Program-made: the position numbers and the translations under genes
The notes under the pieces: model-generated
What the model was told of the DNA's origin: nothing
Database searches by the model: none
The model's input: the letters and a program-made list of their open reading frames with translations, nothing else
From: Candidatus Magasanikiibacteriota bacterium
GTDB taxonomy: Bacteria > Patescibacteriota > Patescibacteriia > Magasanikbacterales > UBA922
Direction: 5' to 3'
NCBI GenBank assembly: GCA_041674805.1
Contig: JBAYVA010000001.1
Span: 198,612 to 262,611 of the forward strand
Length of the DNA: 64,000 nucleotides
Part shown: positions 5,315-62,663 of the stretch, piece by piece
How the letters are laid out: each line of letters opens with the position of its first letter
Position numbering within the stretch: position 1 is the first letter of the stretch

Positions 5315-5611
5315 TTATTTAAAATATTTTTTGGCACTTGGTCGGCGATGAGGACAGCCGGGCCAACAACAAGGTCGGCGTTTACCGGCCAGAAGATCAT
5401 CACACAAGCGGTCTAGATGTTCTTTTCTGGTTTCTTGTTTTTTTACGATGGTAACCCAACATATCCACTCGTTTCGGGCGAGGGGAGTGAGGCTGTTCCA
5501 TTTTTCAAGTACTTCTTTATTGGAAGCCAATGTTTCTTTCAAATCAGCCGGTATTTTGTGGAGTGTAAAAGGGGTGATTTGTTTGGGCATATTTTTATTA
5601 GTTATCGGCAA
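5315..5611 (-). CDS. YdeI/OmpD-associated (DUF1801-like) family protein
   Basis: NEWICWVTIVKKQETRKEHLDRL motif and a GC-rich C-terminal KRRPCCWPGCP tail. Confidence 0.5.
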   Translation of the reverse strand: MPITNKNMPKQITPFTLHKIPADLKETLASNKEVLEKWNSLTPLARNEWICWVTIVKKQETRKEHLDRLCDDLLAGKRRPCCWPGCPHRRPSAKKYFK

Positions 5612-9804: not shown

Positions 9805-10572
9805 ATGGAAGAACAAAACACACAAAAAGGCATCTTTGATGTAATGACTCCACAACAAACATTTGTTTTTGGTTTGGTCGGAGGAGTATTAGTACTTTGT
9901 ACTTTGGGATTTTTTATTTTGCTTGGCATTATGCTAAAAGGCGGGGATAGTTTGCCAAAAAATAACAATGTAAATACAGGTAATAATGTAGTAGAAAATA
10001 ACAATTTACCACAACCTAGTGCAGAAATAGTGATCAAAGATGTAGATACAAAAAAAGATCATATTCGTGGCAATAAAAATGCCAAAATAACTATCGTAGA
10101 ATTTTCTGATACAGAATGTCCATTTTGTAAAAGATTTCATGAAACTATGAAACAAATCATTGACAAATATGGTGATGATGTTAGATGGGTATATCGTCAA
10201 ATGCCTCTTGATGGTTTGCATAAAAAAGCTCGTACAGAAGCACTTGCTACAGAATGTGCGGCTGACCAAGGTAAATTTTGGGAATATATTGATTTGATTT
10301 ATGGAAGAACTACATCAAACGATGGTTTGGATTCAGCTCAATTACCACTTTTTGCCAAAGAAGTTGGTATCAATGTAAACAAATTTCAAACTTGTTTAGA
10401 CAACAAACAATTTGCTAGTGAAGTACAAGCAGATGAAGCTGATGGACAAGCTGCTGGTGGTCAAGGTACTCCATACTCAGTACTTATCGGACCAAATGGT
10501 GAAAAATCTGCTATCAACGGAGCTTATCCTTATGAACAAGTAGAACAAATGATTCAACAATACTTAAAATAA
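9805..10572 (+). CDS. DsbA-family thiol:disulfide oxidoreductase, membrane anchored. The ORF track starts at 9733; M9805 is preferred.
   Basis: CPFC active site (ECPFCKRFHE), an N-terminal TM anchor and a thioredoxin fold. Confidence 0.75.
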   Translation: MEEQNTQKGIFDVMTPQQTFVFGLVGGVLVLCTLGFFILLGIMLKGGDSLPKNNNVNTGNNVVENNNLPQPSAEIVIKDVDTKKDHIRGNKNAKITIVEFSDTECPFCKRFHETMKQIIDKYGDDVRWVYRQMPLDGLHKKARTEALATECAADQGKFWEYIDLIYGRTTSNDGLDSAQLPLFAKEVGINVNKFQTCLDNKQFASEVQADEADGQAAGGQGTPYSVLIGPNGEKSAINGAYPYEQVEQMIQQYLK

Positions 10573-10617
10573 GCAATTTAAGCAAAGTAAGCAGAATAGG
10601 CAGATTAAGTAGATTTT

Positions 10618-11952: not shown

Positions 11953-12205
11953 AGTTATATTATTATAGATGATTTAATCATAGCAAAAATAGGCAGAATA
12001 AGCAAAGTAAGCAGAGTAGGCAGAATAAGTAAATTTTATTTGAATATTTGGATAATTTATCTAAACAAAGCTATTTTTAAGATATGAACAATTGAATGTT
12101 TGAAAGAAAATAGCTATAATATACGTATTAATTGATGACTACGTGGATAACTGTTGTTTTTTACTAATGTGATTTGTAATAAATAGCGTAGTAATTCTAT
12201 AAATT

Positions 12206-16175: not shown

Positions 16176-16259
16176 AGGTGTTAAAGGCTTGAAATGCCTG
16201 AAAAGCTAGAAAGGCTCAAAAGGCTTTAATGTGTGAATATTATAGCAGTGTTTATTATA

Positions 16260-18470
16260 TTAGACAAATAATTTGAAGACAAGAAAAAGTCCATATAATA
16301 ATGCACCTAAACCTAGCGAAATTGCTATTTTTTTATTTGCTGGTAATTTTTCTTGTTCTGTAGTTTCAGATATATTTTCTGAAGAATTATCAACATCTTC
16401 AAAAATTTCTTCATCTTCAGTTTCTTCTACTGAATCTTGTTCTTCTACTATTTTTTCACCACGTGTTTCTTCTATTTTTGGATTATTATTTGAATTATTT
16501 TTTGGTTTAGAATTTGTTTTTGCTATATCTAATATATTTTCTTCTATAGTATAAAGCACTGGTAAAATTTCCATGTCTTGTTCATTTTCTGCTACTTCTA
16601 CTATTTCTTCGGTACTAGTTGGCATTTCTTCTTCTAAAACAATTTCAATTGTAGTTGTAGGGATTTGTAGAGTGGTGGTTGCTGTATTTGAATTTGAAAT
16701 ATTTTCATTTGAAATGTTTGTTTTAGAAAAATCTTTTAAAATTTCATTCCAATTTTTATTCAAATAAGCTGGGATAGCATAAGATGTAATCCAAACCCTG
16801 GTTTGTTCAGTATTCTCTTCTTTTGAGGATATTCCACCATCTGATTGTTGTGCTGATTTTAGATAATCACTAGGTGTAGTTCCATTTTTATTCCAATCAT
16901 TTTCATTTTCATCAAGTGCATCAATAGCTTGTAGTGCCCAAGTTGTAGAAAATAAATTTGAATTAAAACTAGAATTATTATCTTGTTTTGATTTTAAATA
17001 ATTTTTTGCAGACTCAATTGCTAATATCACATTTTCATTTGTAGTATTCAAAGATTTTAAAGCTTGGATAGCTGCTGCAGTCATATCTATATCACCAAAA
17101 TTACCTATTTTAGTATTTTGTTTAGAAAGTAAAAAATCAGTGCTTATTTTGATTATTTCATCTTCATAGTTATAACCAGCATTAACAAGAGTAATAATAC
17201 CAAATATATCATCATTATAAAGAGTATTTTCGCCTATTTGTTTTCCATCAAAACTCTCTATTATTTTTTGAATATAATTTATAGAAGATGAATTATATGG
17301 ATTTTTATCTAAAGACATTAAAGCCATGGCTCTACGTTCATAATCTGTTATTTCAGAATTATCTGAAAGGGGATTATTTATTAAATAATTTGCAATACTT
17401 TCTTTTTGTTGAGAATTATTTGAATAGCTACCATAAGCAATTGCTGCCCAATCAGTATATAATGTAGAATCAAAAAAATTTCCGTTTTCAATTTTTGAGT
17501 TTAGATATACAAAAGCATTATCTATAAAATTATTTGTTGTATTAGATGAAGAGGATCCATTACTTTCAGATGGAGTATTTGTTGTTATATCATTTTCTTC
17601 TTCAGTGTTGTTAGAATTTTCTACTGGATTTATAGTCATTATTTCACTAGTAATAAATCCATTTTTTTTGGCATAAATTGTATAAGGTGTGGTAGTTGTA
17701 ATAAATAATTCATAAATACCGTCTTCATCAAAAATTTCTTCACCATTTAAAAATAATGTGCTACTAGCTGAATTTGATAATATTTCGTTCCAATTTTCAT
17801 CGTAACCAGAAGATTCTTTGATATTTAAAGTAGTTGTTGAATTTACAAAAGGTGTAGTAGTAGAAGTTTCAATTTTTAATTGAGATAATCCGTAAAATAA
17901 ATAAATATTTTCTTGTTCTTCTAATATTTCTTGATTAAGACCTTTGGTACCTGGTACATAATAATTATTGTACCATAACCAATAATTAAAATCAGAACCA
18001 TCATAATTATTTATTTTATTTAAAAAAACTTGATCACTATACCAATTTCCTAAAATAGCCCAATCTTTTTCTTTAGATAATTGTTGAATTGCACACCAAG
18101 CATTCAAAGTATTCTCTGTTCCGTTTTCAGTATTTGGACAAGCTGTAACAATAAAATCATTACTATATAATTCTTGATCATAAGTTTGTATTTGAAGATG
18201 AATTGTTGTCGTTGGCAATGGTTCAATTACAATATCATTATTTGGAATTTCTTCTGGTGTAGGTTCTTCAGTACTAGCTACTAAATTATTATCAGTGCTT
18301 AAAATAGCATTCTCAACTATAATTTCATCTTTTGTTTCTGTACTTTCTAAAATAAGAGGAACTTCTTCGGGATTTTCTCCCTCAGCATAAGCAAAATTTG
18401 ATATAGTCAAATTGCCAAATAAACTAAAGATTAAAACTAAATTTATTATTTTAAAATTTACTTTTTTCAT
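16260..18470 (-). CDS. Cell-surface protein with a prenyltransferase/squalene-cyclase-like alpha-alpha toroid repeat domain (transcobalamin alpha-domain-like) and a C-terminal TM anchor
   Basis: Signal peptide. Repeated helical-hairpin motifs (TDWAAIAYGSY, ERRAMALMSL, MTAAAIQALKSL, TTWALQAIDAL). Acidic region followed by a TM anchor at the C-terminus. Confidence 0.55.
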   Translation of the reverse strand: MKKVNFKIINLVLIFSLFGNLTISNFAYAEGENPEEVPLILESTETKDEIIVENAILSTDNNLVASTEEPTPEEIPNNDIVIEPLPTTTIHLQIQTYDQELYSNDFIVTACPNTENGTENTLNAWCAIQQLSKEKDWAILGNWYSDQVFLNKINNYDGSDFNYWLWYNNYYVPGTKGLNQEILEEQENIYLFYGLSQLKIETSTTTPFVNSTTTLNIKESSGYDENWNEILSNSASSTLFLNGEEIFDEDGIYELFITTTTPYTIYAKKNGFITSEIMTINPVENSNNTEEENDITTNTPSESNGSSSSNTTNNFIDNAFVYLNSKIENGNFFDSTLYTDWAAIAYGSYSNNSQQKESIANYLINNPLSDNSEITDYERRAMALMSLDKNPYNSSSINYIQKIIESFDGKQIGENTLYNDDIFGIITLVNAGYNYEDEIIKISTDFLLSKQNTKIGNFGDIDMTAAAIQALKSLNTTNENVILAIESAKNYLKSKQDNNSSFNSNLFSTTWALQAIDALDENENDWNKNGTTPSDYLKSAQQSDGGISSKEENTEQTRVWITSYAIPAYLNKNWNEILKDFSKTNISNENISNSNTATTTLQIPTTTIEIVLEEEMPTSTEEIVEVAENEQDMEILPVLYTIEENILDIAKTNSKPKNNSNNNPKIEETRGEKIVEEQDSVEETEDEEIFEDVDNSSENISETTEQEKLPANKKIAISLGLGALLYGLFLVFKLFV

Positions 18471-19050
18471 ATTTCCATTCTATATTATCCCCCGAATTAA
18501 CTTTTTGATAACTAATACCTATATTGGCACTTTTGCCATTTAGGTAGTAAATCCAATATAGTCCTTTTTCATTATCATTTTTTAAATTATTTATTTCTGT
18601 TACAAATTTTCCCATGCTACCGTAATCTTTTGTTTGAAAAATAAATTCAGATTTATTTTCATTTTGCAATTGTTGCATGAGTTTTTCTAGAATAATATTT
18701 TCTTCAGAAAAATTTATACGATAATTTTTATCATTGACTTTGAAATCTGCAAAGTAGGGAAGTTCTAATACTATTTTTTCTGTTTCTTTTGTACTTGTTG
18801 AGGTATTTGTTGCTACTATTTTTTCATTATTTTTTTTAATAGTAGGACTTGTTTTATTGATAGTTACTTTTGATTTTTCAATAATTGTTTTTTTTTCTTC
18901 TGGTTTATTTTCTGTTTGTTCTATTTTTTCAGCTTGCAAAATTTCTTCATTTTTTTTCAAATTTGTTTCTGGACGAAGAAAGAAAATTAACGAAGAAAAA
19001 AGAAGGGCAAAAAATATCAGCAAATGATATTTCCAATTTATTTTTTTCAT
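18451..19050 (-). CDS. DUF4430 (transcobalamin-like C-terminal/beta domain) protein, membrane anchored
   Basis: C-terminal GLYWIYYLNGKSANIGISYQKVNSGDNIEWKY matches the DUF4430 YW.Y.VNG...G...Y.LKdGD.I.W.Y signature. Confidence 0.6.
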   Translation of the reverse strand: MKKINWKYHLLIFFALLFSSLIFFLRPETNLKKNEEILQAEKIEQTENKPEEKKTIIEKSKVTINKTSPTIKKNNEKIVATNTSTSTKETEKIVLELPYFADFKVNDKNYRINFSEENIILEKLMQQLQNENKSEFIFQTKDYGSMGKFVTEINNLKNDNEKGLYWIYYLNGKSANIGISYQKVNSGDNIEWKYEKSKF

Positions 19051-19059
19051 AAAAAAAAT

Positions 19060-19245
19060 CTGCTTAAGTGAGCAGAAAGATGTAAAAATATTTCTTATTG
19101 TGATAAAAAATAAGAATTTTTTTCCTGCTCGGGATAAATTATACTTGAAGACCGGACTTAACTTTTGTAAAAGTTTTACCGTTGCGGCACAGTGGAGGAA
19201 TTTGACCTCACTTCCAACAAATATAAATTAATTTGTAATATTGTT
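19060..19245 (-). ncRNA. Candidate cobalamin riboswitch / structured attenuator leader upstream of the DUF4430 operon
   Basis: On the minus strand the leader reads GGAAGUGAGGUCAAAUUCCUCCACUGUGCCGCAACGGUAAAA...AAGUCCGGUCUUC. This resembles the cobalamin-aptamer GGUG.AA.UCC, CCACUGU, CCGCAACGGUAA and B12-box-like elements. Two hairpin+U-tract terminators follow; the second ends in U8 directly before the AUG. Confidence 0.4.
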
Positions 19246-40830: not shown

Positions 40831-42435
40831 ATGTATAATTATAATTATATGAAAAATACAATAAAAAAAGTTAAGGTACTTTCCTTAACAGCGGTGTTTG
40901 CTCTGTCGGCAAGTTTTGTGTTTTTGCCATTTTCGGTAAAAGCCGTAACTGTTGATAGTACTAACCCGACCGTAGCTATTACTTCACCAGCTCAAAATGC
41001 TGTAGTATCTGGTATGTCTTCGATAGTTGTCGACACAACTGATGCTTATTCATCGTGTGTGGTTACTTTGTTTGGTTCAAAATATGATGTTTCTCCCTTA
41101 CAAACTGATCATTCTGGAGGAAATCTATTTATTTGTGGTACAGACATGACTGCTATCTACCAATCTCAACATGGTACTAATCTGTCTCGTGTCGCTTCTT
41201 ATCTAATTCCTGCAAGTTATATTGGTGTTAACAAAGTAGAGTTTTATTTTGATGGTATGTTGTTTGGTACAGACATGACTGCTCCTTATTCATTCGATTG
41301 GAATACTGCTATTTTCGCTGATGGTATACATGCTTTAGCAGCTCGAGCCTATGATCAAGCTGGGAATGCTAGTACTTTTTCAATGGTAAATGTTACTATT
41401 GATAATACACCAGTAGATGAAGATCCTGTTATAACAAGCATAGCTTTGACACCAACAACATCTAGTATTTATGTAGGTAATACCGTACAATTGACAGCTG
41501 TAGCTCTAGATCAATATGGTAATGCTTTAGCAACACAACCAACCTTCGATTGGATGTCAAATATTACAAGTATTGCTATTGTGAATGCAACAGGTCTAGT
41601 TACTGGTGTTAGCTCAGGTTCTGCAACTATTACTGTTACTGATGATGTAAGTAATGTTAGTAAAACAGCTGTGGTCAATGTTGCAAATGTGGCACCAGTC
41701 ATAACAAGCATAGCTTTGACACCGACAACATCTAGTATTTATGTGGGTAATACTGTACAATTGACAGCTGTCGCTCTAGATCAATATGGTAATCCTCTAG
41801 CAACACAACCAACCTTCGATTGGATGTCAAATCTTACAGGTATTGCTACTGTGAATACTATGGGTTTAGTTACTGGTGTTAATATGGGTTCTGCAACCAT
41901 TACTGTTGTTGATGATGTAAGTAATGTTAGCAAGACAGCTGTGGTCAATGTTATGAGTACTCCACCTCCAGCAGTTATAGGTAAGATAAAAGTAGAAATG
42001 GAACATGGCAAAGCCGAAATTCATATCAAAGTAAATGGTATGGAAGATGAATTCAAAATGTATAATTCAACTAAAGCAGAAGTAGTAGCTGCTATTACTG
42101 CTAGAACAGGCTTGACTATTGAACAAGTTTTGCAAATAGCAGAATTTGATATGCACAATGAAAACGAACATGGTGATGATCAAAACAATGGACATGGCGA
42201 TGAAAATGGAAACGAACATGGTGATGATCAAAACAATGGACATGGCGATGAAAATGGAAACGAACATGGTGATGATCAAAACAATGGACATGGCGATGAA
42301 AATGGAAATGAACATGGTGATGATCAAAACAATGGACATGATGAAGACGAAGATGAAGATCGTGGTGAACGTCGTGAAAATCATGAACGTCGAAATAATG
42401 AAGACAATAATCACCATGAAAACAGTGATGATTAA
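40831..42435 (+). CDS. Secreted protein with two Big_2 (bacterial Ig-like) domains and a C-terminal His/Asp/Asn-rich 15-aa tandem repeat (NEHGDDQNNGHGDENG x4)
   Basis: Signal peptide. Duplicated ITSIALTPTTSSIYVGNTVQLTAVALDQYGN...ATITV. A 45-bp nucleotide tandem repeat at 42160-42340. Confidence 0.7.
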   Translation: MYNYNYMKNTIKKVKVLSLTAVFALSASFVFLPFSVKAVTVDSTNPTVAITSPAQNAVVSGMSSIVVDTTDAYSSCVVTLFGSKYDVSPLQTDHSGGNLFICGTDMTAIYQSQHGTNLSRVASYLIPASYIGVNKVEFYFDGMLFGTDMTAPYSFDWNTAIFADGIHALAARAYDQAGNASTFSMVNVTIDNTPVDEDPVITSIALTPTTSSIYVGNTVQLTAVALDQYGNALATQPTFDWMSNITSIAIVNATGLVTGVSSGSATITVTDDVSNVSKTAVVNVANVAPVITSIALTPTTSSIYVGNTVQLTAVALDQYGNPLATQPTFDWMSNLTGIATVNTMGLVTGVNMGSATITVVDDVSNVSKTAVVNVMSTPPPAVIGKIKVEMEHGKAEIHIKVNGMEDEFKMYNSTKAEVVAAITARTGLTIEQVLQIAEFDMHNENEHGDDQNNGHGDENGNEHGDDQNNGHGDENGNEHGDDQNNGHGDENGNEHGDDQNNGHDEDEDEDRGERRENHERRNNEDNNHHENSDD

Positions 42436-49703: not shown

Positions 49704-49819
49704 AAAATTATTGTTATTTTTTATACTTTAATATATTCTACCATTTTTTAAAAAATAAATCTAAGTATTTTATATTTATATAACAAAAAAACGCTAATTA
49801 AAGCGTTTAAATGTGTTTG

Positions 49820-50321
49820 CTCGGCGAGTGGGGCTCGAACCCACGACCCACTGGTTACAGTTTCCTCTCTCTTTCGAAAAAGACTGGACTATTTCATCAC
49901 CCATGCCATAAGCCCCGATAAATCGGGGAGCATTAAGGGTGCGGAGCGCTTCGAATCCGTTTCTGCGAATCCTACTCCCACAAGGGGATAGTCTCTGAAC
50001 CTTCTTATTTTTTCAGAAGTATTTGTTTATAGACAAACCTTGAAAACAAGGATCTACAATTTATTACTTCAATTTTACCGAGGTAAAAATTTGAAAAGAT
50101 AAGCTTGGCTGCAGGTTGCCATCTTGACCTAAATCAAGAACAGGTTTCCTGTCTAACAAATCTATTTAGATCTGCAGTTTCTGCTATTACAATTAAGTAA
50201 GACAGAACAGTTCACTCCGTTGGCACTGTGGTGTTTCCACCGCAGGCTGCTATATTTAATTCCAATAAATCAGAATTACTTCTTTTAACAGCCAGTTGCT
50301 CTACCGCTGAGCTACCGCCGA
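49820..50321 (-). tRNA. tRNA-Asn(GUU) interrupted by a ~430-nt group I intron in the anticodon loop. Exons are 50288-50321 and 49820-49857; the intron is 49858-50287. CCA is not encoded.
   Basis: The joined exons give a 72-nt cloverleaf: UCGGCGG-UA-GCUC-AGCGGUA-GAGC-A-ACUGG-CUGUUAA-CCAGU-GGGUC-GUGGG-UUCGAGC-CCCAC-UCGCCGA-G. The intron carries group I R (GUUCAGAGACUA) and S (AAAUAGUCC) elements forming P7. The 5' exon ends in U and the intron ends in G. Confidence 0.65.
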
Positions 50322-51844: not shown

Positions 51845-51976
51845 ATAAGCAAATTAAGCAAGGTAAGCAGAATAGGCAGAATAAGTTGTAAGCCTCGTAA
51901 GCATATGTTTAATTAGAGAACCTTTCAAAAATATATTTAATAAAAAATAATTAATAACATTTAAATTTAAAACGCT

Positions 51977-52889: not shown

Positions 52890-53477
52890 ATGTCAAAAGA
52901 AATAGTATTAGATATTGAAACAATAGGGGATATACGTGAATTTGATAAACTTGAAGTCACTGTAGTTTCTATTTATGAATATGAAAACGATAAATATACT
53001 TCTTTTGAAAAACATGAATTAGGGAATTTGTGGCCAATACTAGAAAAAGCTGAAAGAATAATTGGTTTCAATAGTGAACATTTTGATTTGCCAATTTTAG
53101 ACAAATATTACGCTGGAAATTTGTTGGCTTTTCCTCAGCTGGATATGTTGAAAGTTGTCAAAGATATGAGTGGCAAAAGATATAAATTAAATGATCTTGC
53201 CAAAGCTACTTTGCAAATTGAAAAAAGTGCAGATGGTCTACAAGCTATAGAATGGTTCAAAGAAGGTAAGCTAGATGAAATCAAAAAATATTGTGAACAA
53301 GATGTCAAAGTTACTAAAGAACTTTATGAATATGGTAAGAAAAACAAGATGATTTATTTCCCAACTTTGACTGGAGAAATACAACCGATTGGAGTCAATT
53401 TTGATATGCCAGTACAAGCTACAAATTCATTTGGACAAGCTATTGGTGGAGGAATCAATTTGACATTGCCACTATAA
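52890..53477 (+). CDS. DEDD-type 3'-5' exonuclease-like (RNase H-like fold) protein
   Basis: N-terminal VLDIETIGD (Exo I-like) and HFDLPIL (Exo II-like); the assignment is weak. Confidence 0.4.
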   Translation: MSKEIVLDIETIGDIREFDKLEVTVVSIYEYENDKYTSFEKHELGNLWPILEKAERIIGFNSEHFDLPILDKYYAGNLLAFPQLDMLKVVKDMSGKRYKLNDLAKATLQIEKSADGLQAIEWFKEGKLDEIKKYCEQDVKVTKELYEYGKKNKMIYFPTLTGEIQPIGVNFDMPVQATNSFGQAIGGGINLTLPL

Positions 53478-53557
53478 AAGCAGAATAAGCAGATTAAGAT
53501 TTTATAATAAAAAAATAGACTAAATAACTTAGTCTATTTTATTTTGAAAAGATGTGC

Positions 53558-53595
53558 CTCCGCCCGCGTTGTCTTGTCGACTCCGCGGGCGGTAC
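53558..53595 (-). terminator. GC-clamp hairpin terminator (ccgcccgcg ... cgcgggcgg) for the small hydrophobic-peptide gene
   Basis: 9-bp perfect GC stem, followed on the minus strand by a U-rich tract. Confidence 0.55.
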
Positions 53596-53598
53596 TCC

Positions 53599-53736
53599 TT
53601 ACTTCTTCTGCGTGGCCTTTCCGGCCTTGGGGTTGTGTCCCCCAAAGGCGGTGACGACGAGGAAGAGGATCGGATAGGCGATAATGCCAATAATGATCAA
53701 GATGATCATCGCCAGCATCTTAAAAAAATCTACCAT
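53599..53736 (-). CDS. 45-aa hydrophobic peptide (MVDFFKMLAMIILIIIGIIAYPILFLVVTAFGGHNPKAGKATQKK) inside a GC-rich island; type I toxin-like or small membrane protein
   Basis: Manually translated. Preceded by AGGAGAGGG and followed by the GC-clamp terminator. Local GC is about 55-60% against a background of about 30%. Confidence 0.4.
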   Translation of the reverse strand: MVDFFKMLAMIILIIIGIIAYPILFLVVTAFGGHNPKAGKATQKK

Positions 53737-53850
53737 ACCCTCTCCTTGCTCCTCGCACCGCGCGAAGAACCTTCATATTTAACTACTTTTTTAATCGAAT
53801 GTCAATAAAAAAAGCAACTATGCTTGTGTAGTTGCTTTTATGTTTTCATG

Positions 53851-54495
53851 TCAACGTCCTTTCCTCACATTTCTATTTTCATATTCTATCATAATTTTTT
53901 CCATATCTTTTTCATTCAAATCTGGTAAAAATTTATCATAAAAAATAAATTCACTGTAAGCTGCTTGCCATAGACAAAAATTTGATAATCTTTGTTCGCC
54001 ACTAGTTCTGACAATCAAATCAAGAGGAGGAACTTCTAAATATTTTTCAAAATTATTTCCACCTTTTTTGACAGCGCGTCTGATTTCATCGTGACTACCA
54101 TAGTCTATACAAAGTATTAAATTGAATTTTTTAAAGTTTTTTGTTTTTTCTTCTAAGTTGGCTATTTTTTTGGCAAGAGAATTTGGTATTCTATCTTTTC
54201 TACCAGCGTGTATAAATTTTATTTTTTTTTCAATAATTTTTGATTCCCAATTATCACAAACTTCTTCAAACAGATTCATTAAATCTTTTATTTCCATCGG
54301 AGTTCTTTTCCAATTTTCAGTTGAAAAAGTGTATATTACTAATGTATCAAAATTTTTATGATTATAAAGATATTCTAAAATGACATCTTTTATAATGTCT
54401 TTAACTCTATGATAAGCTGCTAGAGCTGGTAGATTTTTATTTTTGGCCCAACGTCTATTGCCGTCAGCAATTAAACCAAATTTTAGTTTTGGCAT
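53851..54495 (-). CDS. uppS: Isoprenyl transferase (undecaprenyl-diphosphate synthase family)
   Basis: GLIADGNRRWAK signature. Confidence 0.85.
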   Translation of the reverse strand: MPKLKFGLIADGNRRWAKNKNLPALAAYHRVKDIIKDVILEYLYNHKNFDTLVIYTFSTENWKRTPMEIKDLMNLFEEVCDNWESKIIEKKIKFIHAGRKDRIPNSLAKKIANLEEKTKNFKKFNLILCIDYGSHDEIRRAVKKGGNNFEKYLEVPPLDLIVRTSGEQRLSNFCLWQAAYSEFIFYDKFLPDLNEKDMEKIMIEYENRNVRKGR

Positions 54496-59890: not shown

Positions 59891-59927
59891 TAGCCTTTCC
59901 AGCGTAGACGGGTCCGCCTTGGGTGGA
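59891..59927. repeat. 37-bp GC-rich element (agcctttccagcgtagacgggtccgccttgggtggac). It is the inverted partner of 62615-62651; together they bracket clpB.
   Basis: Reverse complement matches 62615-62651 at 33 of 37 positions. Confidence 0.7.
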
Positions 59928-59962
59928 CAGGCCTTTTTGGCCTTTCTAGCATTTCAAGCCTT

Positions 59963-62602
59963 TTAGGCCTTTATATCAATCTCACCCTTCACCACTTCAA
60001 TCTTCACCTCACTACCTTCATGAATCTTTTTTTCTACTATTTGCATAGCTAATTTATTGAGAAGCTCTGTCTGAAGTACACGTTTTAGAGGACGTGCTCC
60101 AAGATTTTCATCAAAACCTTTTTTGGCCAGCCAATCTTTGGCTTTGTTAGAAATCTTGATAGAAATTTTTTGTTTTTTGAGACGTTTTTCAATTGCCAAA
60201 ATTTGTAAATCTACTATTTGACGAATTTGTTTTTCGTTTAGAGAATGGAAAACAATGATGTCATCGATACGATTCAAAAATTCTGGTTTGAATTGTTCTT
60301 TTAGAGCTGACATGACAGCCTTATTTACTTTATTATTATTTTTATCTTTGTCTTTTTTATTGTCACTAGTTTCAAAACCAAATTCTCCTTTTTTACCCAT
60401 AGACATAATAATATCACTGGCAATATTACTTGTCATAATTATTACAGTATTTTTGAAATTTACTTTGCGACCTTTGGCATCTGTCAGATGTCCATCTTCT
60501 AGAATTTGGAGCATGATATTGAAAGTATCTGGGTGTGCTTTTTCTATTTCGTCAAATAGAATTACTGAATATGGTTTTCTTCGCACTATTTCTGTCAATT
60601 GTCCACCTTCATCAAAGCCAACATAGCCAGGAGGGGAGCCAATCATCTTGCTTACCGCGTGTTTTTCCATATATTCTGTCATATCTACGCGTATCAAGGC
60701 TTCTTCATCATTGAACAAGAATTCTGCCAAAGCTTTGGCTAATTCAGTTTTTCCTACACCAGTTGGACCCATGAAAATAAAAGAACCAATAGGACGTTTT
60801 TCTTCAGCAATACCAGCCCGACTACGACGAATAGCATTGGAGACGGATTGTATAGCTTCTTCTTGTCCGATGACACGTTTGGTGATTTCTTTTTCCATTT
60901 TGGCAAGTTTTATTACTTCATCTTCCAACATTTTGTTTAGTGGAATGCCTGTCCAACGAGAAACTACGCGGGCGATGTCTTCTTCTGTTACTTCTTCTTT
61001 GAGAATACTGTTTGTCTTTTGTAAATCAGCCAACTTCATTTCATATTTTTTGATAGCTTTTTCTATCATAGGAATCTTGCCATAACGAAGCTCAGCCACT
61101 TTTTGCAAGTCACCTTTACGTTCTTCTATTTCCGAGTTTTGTTTTAATTTGTCTATTTCTTTTTTATGTTCACGAATTTTGGTAATAATATCTTTTTCAT
61201 TAGTCCATTGCATTTCTATTTCTTTACTTTGATCTTTCAAATTTGCAAGTTCTTCTTTCAATTTTTGTTCACGTTCTTTACTTTCATTGTCAGTTTCTTT
61301 TTTGAGTGCTTTTAGTTCAATTTCTATTTTCATTATTTGACGTTTCATTTTGTCTAGATTGTCTGGCATTGAGTCTATTTGCATTTTTAGAGCACTAGCC
61401 GCTTCATCAATAAGATCAATCGCTTTGTCTGGCAATTGTCTGTCGCTGATATATCGATTGGAAAGTTGGACAGAAGAAACAATAGCAGGATCAGTGATTC
61501 TTACACCATGATGAATTTCATATTTTTCTTTGATACCACGCAAAATTGCGATAGCATCTTCTGTTTTTGGTTCTAGAACTAAGACTGGTTGGAAACGACG
61601 TTCAAACGCAGCATCTTTTTCAATATGTTTTTGGTATTCTTTTATAGTAGTAGCACCAACTACATGCATTTCACCACGAGCTAGGCCTGGTTTTAGCATG
61701 TTTGAAGCGTCTACAGCACCTTCAGAGCTACCAGCACCCACAATAGTGTGTAATTCATCAATAAACAAAATTATTTTGCCTTGGGCTTCTGTCACTTCTT
61801 TGATTACAGCTTTGAAACGTTCTTCAAATTCACCTCTAAATTTGGTACCAGCGAGTAGGGAACCGATGTCCAAAGAAATGATTTCTTTGTTTTTCAAATT
61901 TTCTGGTACATCTCCATTGACGATTCTTTGAGCCAAGCCTTCGACAACTGCTGTTTTACCAACGCCAGGTTCACCAATAAGCACTGGATTATTTTTTGTT
62001 CTGCGAGTAAGTACTTGCATGACACGACGAATTTCATCGTCACGACCAATCACTGGATCAAGTTTTTCTTTGCGAGCACGCTCGGTCAAATTGATGCCGT
62101 ATTTTTCCAGAGCTTGATATTTACTTTCTGGTTCAGGACTGTCGACACGTTGATTGCCACGTATGTCTTTTAGTACATTCAAAATGTCTTGGTATTGTAC
62201 TTTTTGACGAGAGAGAGCGTCGCTAATTGGGTTTTTGTTAGTCAAAAAAGCAAGAAGCAAATGTTCAACACTAATAAATTCATCGTGCATTTTTTTGGCT
62301 TCATTGTCAGCATTTTGTAAAATAAAAATCATGGCTTGGCCAAGCGTTACTTGTCCAATATTACGATTTTCCGGCATTGCTTGTTTTGGAATGGCGTTTA
62401 TCATTTCTTGAACCTCGGTTTTTAGCTGTTCAATATTGACATTTAGTTTTTTGAAAATAGAAACAACAACACCTTCACTTTGATTGAGTAAACTCAAAAA
62501 TAGGTGAGGTGGTTCTATCTGTGTTTGGCTATTTTGGGTAGCAATATTTTGCGAATTTTGAATAGCTTCTTGTGATTTGTTTGTAAAATTTTGGGGAAAC
62601 AT
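59963..62602 (-). CDS. clpB: ATP-dependent chaperone ClpB (AAA+ disaggregase)
   Basis: Clp_N domain, two Walker A motifs (GEPGVGKTA; GPTGVGKTE), a coiled-coil middle domain; 879 aa. Confidence 0.95.
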
Positions 62603-62614
62603 ATATAAAGGCTT

Positions 62615-62651
62615 ATCCGCCCAAGGCGGACCCGTCTACGCGGGAAAGGCT
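62615..62651. repeat. 37-bp GC-rich element (atccgcccaaggcggacccgtctacgcgggaaaggct), 13 nt upstream of the clpB start
   Basis: See 59891-59927. Confidence 0.7.
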
Positions 62652-62663
62652 ATTAATTTATAA

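What the first reader, a model, noticed from the sequence alone, without database searches (positions are those of the whole stretch)
53550..53800. GC-rich 250-bp island encoding a 45-aa hydrophobic peptide with a GC-clamp terminator (type I toxin-like)
The local GC content is about 55-60% in a genome of about 30% GC. The minus strand encodes MVDFFKMLAMIILIIIGIIAYPILFLVVTAFGGHNPKAGKATQKK, a single TM helix with a basic tail. It is preceded by AGGAGAGGG and followed by a perfect 9-bp GC stem (ccgcccgcg/cgcgggcgg) and a U-tract. The plus-strand 84-aa ORF is low-complexity and implausible. The compositional anomaly argues for horizontal acquisition. Size, hydrophobicity and terminator structure resemble type I toxin or small membrane regulator genes, which usually have an antisense sRNA.
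Basis: partly seen in the sequence, partly recalled or inferred. Interest (0 to 1): 0.6.

Follow-up and report, generated by a model that had tools for sequence, protein, structure and literature searches.

The report
Small membrane-peptide gene, heavily folded mRNA
The GC-rich island is a real, self-contained mini-gene of an uncultured Magasanikbacteria (CPR) bacterium that encodes a 45-residue membrane peptide on an unusually tightly folded mRNA; it looks like a type I toxin gene, but no antitoxin RNA could be shown.

Summary
Window 53548-53772 is about 55% GC in a 30.7% GC window, the most GC-rich stretch of the 64 kb. The minus strand carries a complete small transcription unit (53805-53509): TTGACA-17-TTAAAT promoter, 5' hairpin, strong Shine-Dalgarno (SD) site, 45-codon ORF, 9-bp GC stem-loop, then an ordinary AT-rich terminator.

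The ORF is a real gene. Its excess GC sits at third codon positions (GC3 0.76 against 0.21 genome-wide). Related copies lie at the same locus in three other Magasanikbacteria lineages, two in tandem in one of them. Two diverged copies give dN/dS 0.12.

The peptide is a single helix with a basic tail and has no detectable homologue. Between paralogues the untranslated regions are conserved and the coding sequence is not. All copies fold far better than shuffles and than synonymous-codon permutations, and the SD site is predicted to be buried in three of four.

High GC is therefore best explained by selection for mRNA structure. Recent horizontal transfer and assembly chimera are not supported.

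The anatomy matches most type I toxin criteria. The antitoxin RNA, toxicity and homology to known toxins are unproven or absent. I call it a candidate new type I-toxin-like family, of moderate interest.

The parts
53800..53805 (-). Promoter -35 hexamer, TTGACA
   Evidence: Read from the sequence. ATTGACA is invariant in all four distinct copies of the family.
53777..53782 (-). Promoter -10-like hexamer TTAAAT, 17 nt after the -35
   Evidence: The aligned hexamers are TTAACT in copy B and CTAACT in copy A. It lacks the A at position 2, so the consensus scan did not list it. The assignment is an inference.
53748..53770 (-). 5' hairpin P1 at the predicted 5' end of the mRNA: GUUCUUCGCG-CGG-UGCGAGGAGC. 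The GC-rich tract begins here.
   Evidence: 10 pairs, 97% of cells paired across copies. One compensatory G-C to A-U change and four one-sided compatible changes. The 17-nt block TTCGCGCGGTGCGAGGA is identical in the window and in copy B.
53738..53747 (-). Shine-Dalgarno site AAGGAGAGGG
   Evidence: The predicted unpaired probability of -14..+3 is 0.29, against 0.53 +/- 0.13 for 38 control genes of the window. In the consensus fold it pairs with UCCUCU inside the ORF.
53599..53736 (-). 45-codon ORF plus stop codon, encoding MVDFFKMLAMIILIIIGIIAYPILFLVVTAFGGHNPKAGKATQKK
   Evidence: GC1/2/3 are 0.44/0.29/0.76, against 0.45/0.32/0.21 for the window's long ORFs; 34 GC-ending codons were observed against 11.2 +/- 2.5 expected. 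The AF2 model has a helix at residues 2-32 and a disordered tail. The best 19-aa hydropathy window is 3.1 and the last 12 residues carry net charge +4. NCBI annotates it as WC070_01215, hypothetical protein.
53655..53664 (-). In-ORF anti-SD tract CCUCUUCCUC (codons of Ile-Leu-Phe-Leu)
   Evidence: It pairs with the SD in the minimum-free-energy fold and in the RNAalifold consensus (columns 37-42 with 116-121). The UCCUCU core lies at the aligned position in window and copy B, within an otherwise unalignable CDS. It uses CUC, which accounts for 5% of Leu codons in this genome.
53560..53592 (-). 3'-UTR stem-loop P3: a 9-bp GC stem (CCGCCCGCG/CGCGGGCGG) with an inner GUC/GAC helix
   Evidence: The 18-nt block CTCCGCCCGCGTTGTCTT is identical in window and copy B. 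It is conserved in sequence and shows no covariation. It is not followed directly by a U-tract.
53509..53540 (-). AT-rich intrinsic terminator: hairpin AUAGACUAA/UUAGUCUAU followed by U7. It is bidirectional and also ends the + strand exonuclease gene.
   Evidence: Each family copy has its own, unrelated AT-rich hairpin at this position.

Best explanation
What it is. The island is a self-contained, roughly 260-nt minus-strand transcription unit. It encodes a 45-residue single-pass membrane peptide with a basic, disordered C-terminal tail. It belongs to a small, fast-evolving, previously unrecognised gene family. Copies sit, singly or in tandem, in the variable spacer between uppS and an RNase-H-like exonuclease gene in a narrow clade of Candidatus Magasanikbacteria.

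Why it is GC-rich. The GC-rich tract starts at the predicted transcript start and ends at the 3' stem-loop. It reflects selection for an exceptionally folded mRNA: a 5' hairpin, hairpins inside the ORF built from rare GC-ending synonymous codons, and a GC stem-loop in the 3' UTR. In this fold the strong Shine-Dalgarno site is paired to a UCCUCU tract inside the ORF.

Proposed mechanism (inferred). The full-length mRNA is stable but poorly translatable. The peptide is made only when the fold is opened or processed, and it then inserts into the membrane. This is how type I toxin mRNAs work. I read the locus as a candidate new type I-toxin-like family. Its cognate antisense RNA, if there is one, most plausibly overlaps the conserved 3' stem-loop.

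Shown: the composition anomaly, the gene's reality and purifying selection, the family and its tandem copy, the conserved UTR blocks, and the non-random folding.

Inferred: promoter use, translational silencing, membrane toxicity, and any antitoxin.
For: The gene is real.
- Third-position GC periodicity appears in exactly this frame.
- An SD-preceded ORF for a TM peptide with a polar tail is present in all four distinct copies.
- Copy B in L001 against L081 gives dN/dS 0.12 (7 synonymous, 3 non-synonymous changes; Fisher p 0.002). The peptide frame takes the fewest amino-acid changes of the six frames.
- An independent assembly is identical.

It is a family.
- L001 carries two tandem copies; L037 and L121 carry identical copies; L081 carries one. 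All lie between uppS and the exonuclease gene.
- Window against copy B: the 5' region is 71-74% identical and the 3' region 75%. The CDS is 53%, which is shuffle level (0.485 +/- 0.025).

The mRNA structure is selected.
- The minimum free energy has z -4.8 to -10.8 against shuffles, and z -2.1 to -7.3 against synonymous-codon permutations that keep the peptide and the codon composition.
- dS of copy B is 0.24, against 0.52 and 1.42 for the flanking genes.
- In the consensus fold 91% of cells are paired (0 of 500 shuffles reach this). Eight pairs changed on both sides (3 of 500). Slid controls pair at 44-59%.
- The SD region is less accessible than in 97-100% of control genes for three of four copies.

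The peptide. A helix spans residues 2-32 at pLDDT 85-93, followed by a disordered tail.

Type I criteria come from PMC2887945 and PMC8594479.
Against: - No antitoxin was shown. The window copy has no antisense sigma-70-like promoter above chance. The only RNA-family hint is SR6 antitoxin at 25.7 bits against a gathering score of 55. It was not reproduced in the relatives.
- The 5'-3' long-distance pairing typical of hok and aapA1 is no better than shuffles.
- Copy A has an accessible SD.
- There is no sequence homology to any known toxin family or to any protein.
- Only four distinct sequences are available, and the consensus structure was derived from them, so the covariation statistics are weak.
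- Toxicity is untested.
- The -10 element is imperfect.
Confidence: 0.5

Rival explanations
1. An ordinary, non-toxic small membrane protein, for example a lineage-specific accessory or regulatory subunit possibly linked to the neighbouring uppS and cell-envelope function. Its mRNA would simply be structured for stability, with no toxin-antitoxin logic.
For: All the evidence that the gene is real applies equally. No antitoxin was found. The gene lies directly downstream of uppS on the same strand in every lineage that has it. Many small membrane proteins are also lineage-specific orphans (general knowledge).
Against: Tandem duplication, presence/absence at a variable hotspot, and near-random divergence of the peptide beside conserved UTRs are more typical of selfish or toxin-like modules (PMC2887945). 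A strong SD that is buried by rare-codon pairing suggests that translation is normally kept off. A uppS terminator and a separate promoter lie between the two genes.
Confidence: 0.3
2. A structured regulatory sRNA. The RNA is the functional product, and the ORF is incidental or secondary (a dual-function RNA).
For: The UTR blocks are more conserved than the CDS between paralogues. Folding z-scores are extreme. GC-rich islands in AT-rich genomes are usually structured RNAs (general knowledge).
Against: GC excess confined to third codon positions of one frame. dN/dS 0.12 in that frame only. ATG plus a strong SD and a TM-plus-tail peptide kept in all copies despite sequence turnover. No Rfam family reaches threshold.
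Confidence: 0.08
3. A recently acquired foreign fragment from a GC-rich donor, or a chimeric or contaminant assembly.
For: 55% GC and GC3 of 0.76 in a 31% GC genome. The element is absent from the same spacer in other relatives (L002-L005, L009, L011).
Against: - The promoter, spacer and terminator are host-like AT-rich sequence, and the GC tract coincides with the transcript.
- Homologous copies lie at the same locus in lineages with flank dS 0.45-1.4, so the family is old there and has not ameliorated.
- An identical independent assembly exists.
- No match in 596 Gb of genomes by motif (3 hits, none matched by the family profile, which was built from window and L001), nor in plasmids, phages or viral contigs.
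- Synonymous-codon order is tuned to the fold.
Confidence: 0.05
4. The plus-strand 84-aa ORF (53554-53808) is the gene.
For: It is the longest ORF in the island.
Against: Its length is not conserved: 58 and 55 aa in the B copies, with different ends. The plus-strand frames take 5-8 amino-acid changes for the same 10 substitutions. It has no SD. Its GC peak falls at codon position 1 rather than 3. Its product is low-complexity.
Confidence: 0.01

Closest known systems
Type I toxin-antitoxin toxins of Firmicutes (Fst/Ldr, TxpA/BsrG, yonT with SR6, SprA1/PepA1)
   Same: A peptide under 60 aa with one TM helix and a charged C-terminal tail. Its own promoter and terminator in an intergenic spacer. 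A strong but structurally buried SD, a 5' hairpin and a 3' stem-loop. A tandem paralogue with similarity extending into the UTRs. Presence/absence variation between close relatives. In these Firmicute systems the antitoxin overlaps the 3' end, which is the most conserved block here.
   Different: No sequence or profile similarity. No demonstrated antisense RNA. The host is a CPR/Patescibacteria genome, for which full-text searches found no type I system reported. The mRNA is a striking GC island (55% against 31%), which as far as I know is not a described hallmark of these families.
hok/sok and aapA1/isoA1 toxin mRNAs (SD sequestration, metastable folds)
   Same: A translationally inert, highly folded full-length mRNA is predicted. 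The anti-SD lies at a distance from the SD.
   Different: The defining 5'-3' end pairing was tested and is not better than chance. No mok-like leader ORF is present. No 5'-overlapping antisense promoter was found.
Non-toxic small membrane proteins (for example KdpF, AcrZ, MgtS-type sORFs)
   Same: Size, a single TM helix, orphan status, and frequent omission by gene callers (not called in L001, L081, L037 or L121).
   Different: To my knowledge those genes are not usually tandemly duplicated stand-alone units with conserved UTR structures and a buried SD. No partner complex is evident here.
Dual-function sRNAs (RNAIII/hld, SR1/SR1P, SgrS/SgrT)
   Same: A structured RNA of about 250 nt carrying a short ORF. 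The RNA elements are conserved more than the peptide.
   Different: Here the ORF fills most of the transcript and is under clear purifying selection. No candidate base-pairing seed or target is known.

Membership tests
Type I toxin-antitoxin system | Toxin is a small (<60-70 aa) hydrophobic protein with a predicted transmembrane segment (PMC2887945) | tested here: met
   Peptides of 45, 46, 46 and 38 aa. The best 19-aa Kyte-Doolittle windows are 2.8-3.1. AF2 predicts a helix at residues 2-32.
Type I toxin-antitoxin system | Polar or charged C-terminal region (PMC2887945) | tested here: met
   Net charge of the last 12 residues is +4 (window and both B copies) and +1 (copy A). The tail is disordered in the model.
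Type I toxin-antitoxin system | Stand-alone unit in an intergenic region, often tandemly duplicated, with similarity extending beyond the ORF (PMC2887945) | tested here: met
   The window has one copy. The relative L001 (and L037, L121) has two tandem copies that share the -35, the 5' hairpin and the 3' stem.
Type I toxin-antitoxin system | Toxin mRNA with SD/anti-SD sequestration, a 5' stem-loop and 3' stem-loops (PMC8594479) | tested here: met
   In silico only. The consensus fold contains P1, an SD:UCCUCU helix and P3. SD accessibility is 0.02-0.29 in three of four copies, against 0.53 +/- 0.13 in controls. Copy A is the exception, at 0.49.
Type I toxin-antitoxin system | 5'-3' long-distance interaction of the toxin mRNA (a feature of some families; PMC8594479) | tested here: not met
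   Duplex energies between the 5' end and the stop-codon region are no better than for shuffled 5' ends; 48-68% of shuffles did at least as well.
Type I toxin-antitoxin system | A cis- or trans-encoded antisense sRNA antitoxin that pairs with the toxin mRNA | tested here: inconclusive
   No antisense promoter above chance. On the antisense strand, -10-like boxes lie between the AT hairpin and P3: TATAAT in copy A, GATAAT/TATAAA in B, and only TATTTT in the window. The SR6_antitoxin match is 25.7 bits against a gathering score of 55 and is absent in the relatives. RNA data are needed.
Type I toxin-antitoxin system | Toxicity of the peptide on over-expression | not testable with these tools
   Requires experiment.
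Known type I toxin protein families (Hok, Fst/Ldr, TxpA, Ibs, TisB and others, as in Pfam/NCBIfam) | Significant profile match | tested here: not met
   No Pfam hit better than E = 0.099, none of those hits a toxin family, and no NCBIfam hit. No homologue among 5.8 billion clusters or 1.84 billion representatives.
Intrinsic (Rho-independent) terminator, as claimed for the GC stem | GC-rich stem followed immediately by a U-tract | tested here: not met
   Nine non-U-rich bases follow the stem, and the scan did not call it. The downstream AT-rich hairpin plus U7 meets the definition by eye, but the scan did not call it either; the scan requires at least 3 G-C pairs and this stem has two.
Horizontally acquired genomic islet | Atypical composition, plus a recognisable donor or mobility signature, plus absence from relatives at the same site | tested here: not met
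   Composition is atypical. Homologues occupy the same site in diverged relatives. No donor was found. No island-flanking repeats appear among the listed repeat families, though only the top 20 direct and 25 inverted families were shown, and there is no adjacent integrase or tRNA.

The most novel reading that the evidence does not exclude
This is the first type I toxin-antitoxin-like family seen in the Candidate Phyla Radiation. The control elements (5' hairpin, in-ORF anti-SD, 3' stem-loop) are conserved, while the toxin peptide turns over almost freely by birth and death of tandem paralogues. Selection for an inert, long-lived mRNA is strong enough to build a 55% GC island in a 31% GC genome. 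If so, GC islets could serve as a search image for structured toxin mRNAs in AT-rich uncultured bacteria.
Probability: 0.35. Interest if true: 0.6.

Novelty: new member of a known kind. Interest (0 to 1): 0.45.

Why it matters
CPR/Patescibacteria have tiny genomes, and their small genes and RNA-level regulation are almost unexplored. Full-text searches found no report of a type I toxin system in them.

This locus gives a concrete, testable candidate. It comes with comparative evidence that both the peptide and the mRNA fold are under selection.

It also carries two practical lessons. A compositional island need not mean horizontal transfer. Gene callers miss this family: it is uncalled in L081 and wrongly framed in L001.

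The practical weight is limited. The family was found only in a few closely related uncultured lineages, and its function cannot be tested in the native host.

Tried and rejected
1. Peptide homology. A word-indexed search of 5.8 billion clusters and a full HMMER scan of 1.84 billion representatives found only the peptide itself. An alignment of the B and A peptides found nothing. Pfam, NCBIfam, PHROGs and PDB gave nothing meaningful.

2. Donor or mobile-element search.
- blastn against plasmids and phages found no match.
- The three-part motif scan of genome contigs gave 3 hits, none matched by the family profile available at that point, built from window and L001 only.
- Viral contigs gave 96 hits, none matched by the same profile and none below 40% GC.
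Only 3 of 119 hits were real (L037, L081, L121), so the true distribution is under-sampled.

3. Synteny in more distant relatives (exonuclease 73-78% identical). The spacer is absent or holds other genes.

4. A hok-like 5'-3' long-distance interaction. It looked compensatory by eye (GUUCUUC/GAAGAAG against GUUUUUC/GAAAAAC) but is not better than shuffles. Dropped.

5. The Rfam SR6-antitoxin hit on the plus strand. It is below threshold and amounts to a match of two-hairpin architecture. It was not reproduced in the relatives. Treated as chance.

6. Antisense promoter scan. Only 8-9 of 12 matches in AT-rich sequence, which is chance level.

7. Other GC peaks in the window. One is a YdeI-like 98-aa ORF (5315-5611), another is the group I intron, and the rest lie inside genes. 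None is related.

8. Further copies in the window. None was found by nhmmer, or by motif search allowing 3 mismatches.

Full report
**Observation**

The window is 30.7% GC. Sliding windows of 100, 150 and 220 nt all peak at 53512-53804, with maxima of 65%, 58% and 55.5%. That is above every other stretch of the 64 kb, including a group I intron. GC is 51% over the stated 53550-53800 and 54.7% over 53548-53772.

The minus-strand ORF 53599-53736 gives the quoted 45-aa peptide. AAGGAGAGGG precedes the ATG. The 9-bp arms ccgcccgcg and cgcgggcgg lie at 53560-53568 and 53584-53592.

One detail of the finding is wrong. On the coding strand the GC stem is followed by AGGCACAUC and then CUUUUC, and the terminator scan does not call it. 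The canonical terminator is the next, AT-rich hairpin (stem 53516-53536) followed by U7.

An independent Logan assembly (L228, SRR6484325) is identical across 53440-53900. Assembly chimerism is excluded.

**Organism and context**

The peptide is in NCBI as WC070_01215 of a Candidatus Magasanikbacteria MAG. The flanking genes are an RNase-H-like 3'-5' exonuclease (52890-53477, + strand) and UppS (53851-54495, - strand).

**Anatomy, read on the minus strand**

- A uppS terminator hairpin at 53839-53810.
- A perfect -35 TTGACA (53805-53800), a 17-nt spacer, and TTAAAT (53782-53777).
- The GC-rich tract starts about 7 nt later, at the predicted transcript start (about 53770).
- A 5' hairpin P1 (53770-53748), the SD (53747-53738) and the ORF.
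- The GC stem-loop P3 (53592-53560).
- An AT-rich terminator (53540-53509).

The GC island therefore coincides with the transcript. The promoter and terminator are ordinary host-like AT-rich sequence.

**Is the ORF coding?**

GC by codon position is 0.44/0.29/0.76, against 0.45/0.32/0.21 for 28 long ORFs of the window. With genome codon usage this peptide would have 11.2 +/- 2.5 GC-ending codons, and it has 34. Excess GC confined to third positions of one frame, which is also the frame with ATG and SD, is a coding signature.

Comparative data confirm it. Copy B in L001 and in L081 differ at 10 positions. These give 3 amino-acid changes in the peptide frame and 5-8 in each of the other five frames. 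dN/dS is 0.12 (Sd 7, Nd 3; Fisher p 0.002). The plus-strand ORF changes length between copies (84, 58 and 55 aa) and takes many replacements, so it is not a gene.

**The peptide**

AF2 gives one helix at residues 2-32 (pLDDT 85-93) and a disordered tail. The best 19-residue hydropathy window is 3.1, and the last 12 residues carry net charge +4.

No homologue was found:
- only the peptide itself in 5.8 billion clusters and in a full HMMER pass over 1.84 billion representatives;
- nothing meaningful in Pfam, NCBIfam, PHROGs or PDB.

**Relatives**

I fetched contigs that encode close homologues of the exonuclease and ran a three-part DNA motif scan. Together these gave four distinct family members, all between uppS and the exonuclease gene:

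- the window copy;
- copy B and copy A in tandem in L001, with identical copies in L037 and L121 from other samples;
- a single B-type copy in L081.

The peptides are:
- MRAIKVVGIVALGLLLLTLLCLVLLYMFFWKILGGTRGLREKRKNF (B, 46 aa);
- the L081 variant of B, with 3 replacements;
- MRVLIVMAICAVALGLVALPAAIFFFFLWVSMPTKDKN (A, 38 aa).

None of these was called correctly by the gene callers.

Other relatives carry unrelated content in the same spacer, or no spacer at all. The site is a variable hotspot.

**Conservation pattern**

Window against B:
- promoter plus 5' UTR is 71-74% identical;
- the 60 nt after the stop are 75% identical;
- exact blocks of 17 nt (TTCGCGCGGTGCGAGGA) and 18 nt (CTCCGCCCGCGTTGTCTT) are shared;
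- the CDS is 53% identical, against 48.5 +/- 2.5% for shuffles.

Flanking genes are 77-88% identical at the nucleotide level, with dS 0.45-1.4.

L001 and L081 are as far apart in their flanks as either is from the window. The exonuclease gene gives dS 1.42 and uppS gives 0.52. Yet their B copies differ by only dS 0.24. Two readings follow, both inferences:

- Synonymous sites of the small gene are constrained.
- The window copy and B are best seen as paralogues differentially retained from a tandem array, not as diverged orthologues.

**RNA structure**

- The 276-nt minus-strand RNA folds at -115.7 kcal/mol, z = -7.4.
- For the four transcripts taken from start to P3, z is -4.8 to -10.8 against shuffles.
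- Against permutations that only swap synonymous codons among positions of the same amino acid, z is -2.1 to -7.3. Between 0 and 1% of permutations fold as well. The order of the rare GC-ending codons is therefore tuned to the fold.

RNAalifold on the four sequences gives the following elements:
- P1;
- a helix pairing the SD with a UCCUCU tract inside the ORF, at the aligned position in the window and in B;
- hairpins within the CDS;
- P3.

On that structure 91.3% of cells pair (0 of 500 shuffles reach this). Eight pairs changed on both sides (3 of 500). Slid controls pair at 44-59%.

Caveats: there are only four sequences, the structure was derived from them, and the CDS alignment is uncertain.

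- P1 alone has one compensatory change and four compatible one-sided changes.
- P3 is conserved in sequence without covariation.
- The SD region (-14..+3) has unpaired probability 0.29 (window), 0.09 and 0.02 (B copies) and 0.49 (A). The 38 control genes give 0.53 +/- 0.13.

**What explains the GC?**

Recent transfer is not supported, for four reasons:
- The family is resident at this locus in lineages separated by dS of about 0.5-1.4.
- GC3 is high in all copies (0.43-0.76) without amelioration.
- No donor was found.
- The GC tract matches the transcript boundaries.

Selection for a stable fold, acting on the UTRs and on synonymous sites, accounts for all of this.

**Mechanism**

*Shown:* a conserved, selected small membrane-peptide gene on a non-randomly folded mRNA with conserved 5' and 3' stem-loops.

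*Inferred:* the mRNA is long-lived and translationally repressed by SD:anti-SD pairing, and the peptide acts in the membrane.

This anatomy meets most criteria used to discover type I toxins: size, TM segment, polar C-terminus, stand-alone unit, tandem copies with similarity beyond the ORF (PMC2887945), and SD/anti-SD with 5' and 3' stem-loops (PMC8594479).

Three things are missing:
- An antitoxin. There is no room for a separate sRNA gene, so it would have to be antisense. Antisense promoter-like sites are at chance level. The most suggestive are -10 boxes just outside P3: TATAAT in A, GATAAT/TATAAA in B, and only TATTTT in the window.
- A significant RNA-family match. The sub-threshold SR6-antitoxin hit (25.7 against 55 bits) is not reproduced in the relatives.
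- A hok-like 5'-3' interaction. It is not supported.

I put about 0.85 on "real small gene with selected mRNA structure" and about 0.45-0.5 on "type I-toxin-like". The main rival is a benign small membrane protein.

**Novelty**

No homologue or Rfam family matches. Full-text searches for type I toxins together with CPR or Patescibacteria returned nothing.

Noticed in passing
window 49819-50321 (-); also L081:404-800 (-): A group I intron (RF00028, 65.7 bits) sits in the anticodon loop of a tRNA gene that the default ARAGORN run missed. With intron search on, ARAGORN calls a tRNA at 49819-50321 with a 430-nt intron. The isotype is ambiguous: Thr(UGU) by that call, Leu(UAA) for several manual splice points.
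   Followed up: partly
window 10571-10613, 11991-12024, 51847-51880, 53478-53493 (+): A 9-nt periodic repeat, (T)AAGCAGAAT-like, occurs on the + strand only. There are 13 matches against 2.07 +/- 1.44 expected. Three of the four clusters begin at the stop codon of a + strand gene and give an in-frame TAA every 9 nt. One cluster abuts the small-gene element and is also present in L001:1503-1540. Function unknown.
   Followed up: partly
window 59891-59936 and 62607-62652: A 46-nt GC-rich inverted repeat (91% complementary) brackets the 879-aa ORF 59963-62602 (-). A related CCTTT/AAAGG-rich arm lies at 16176-16224.
   Followed up: no
window 19106-19242 (-): AdoCbl (B12) riboswitch, 62.3 bits, upstream of the ORFs at 18451-19050 and 16260-18470.
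   Followed up: no
L002:4588-5333, L003, L004, L005:4585-5128, L009:675-2665: The exonuclease-uppS spacer is a variable hotspot in relatives. L002-L004 hold an orphan 88-aa ORF plus GC-rich hairpins. L005 holds GC-rich hairpins and a roughly 70-nt direct repeat. L009 holds an S8 peptidase gene.
   Followed up: partly
L001:1836-2123 (-): The deposited gene call (95 aa) runs across copy B in the wrong frame. The real 46-aa and 38-aa ORFs are uncalled there. The 46-aa ORF of L081 is absent from the protein database.
   Followed up: yes
window 42109-42396 (+), inside ORF 40831-42435: Tandem 24/48-nt repeats encode a His/Asp/Asn/Gly-rich low-complexity stretch.
   Followed up: no
window 5315-5611 (-): The second-highest GC peak (52-55%) is a 98-aa ORF with a Cys/Pro/Arg-rich C-terminus. 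It looks like a YdeI-type small protein, from memory and not tested. It is unrelated to the island.
   Followed up: partly
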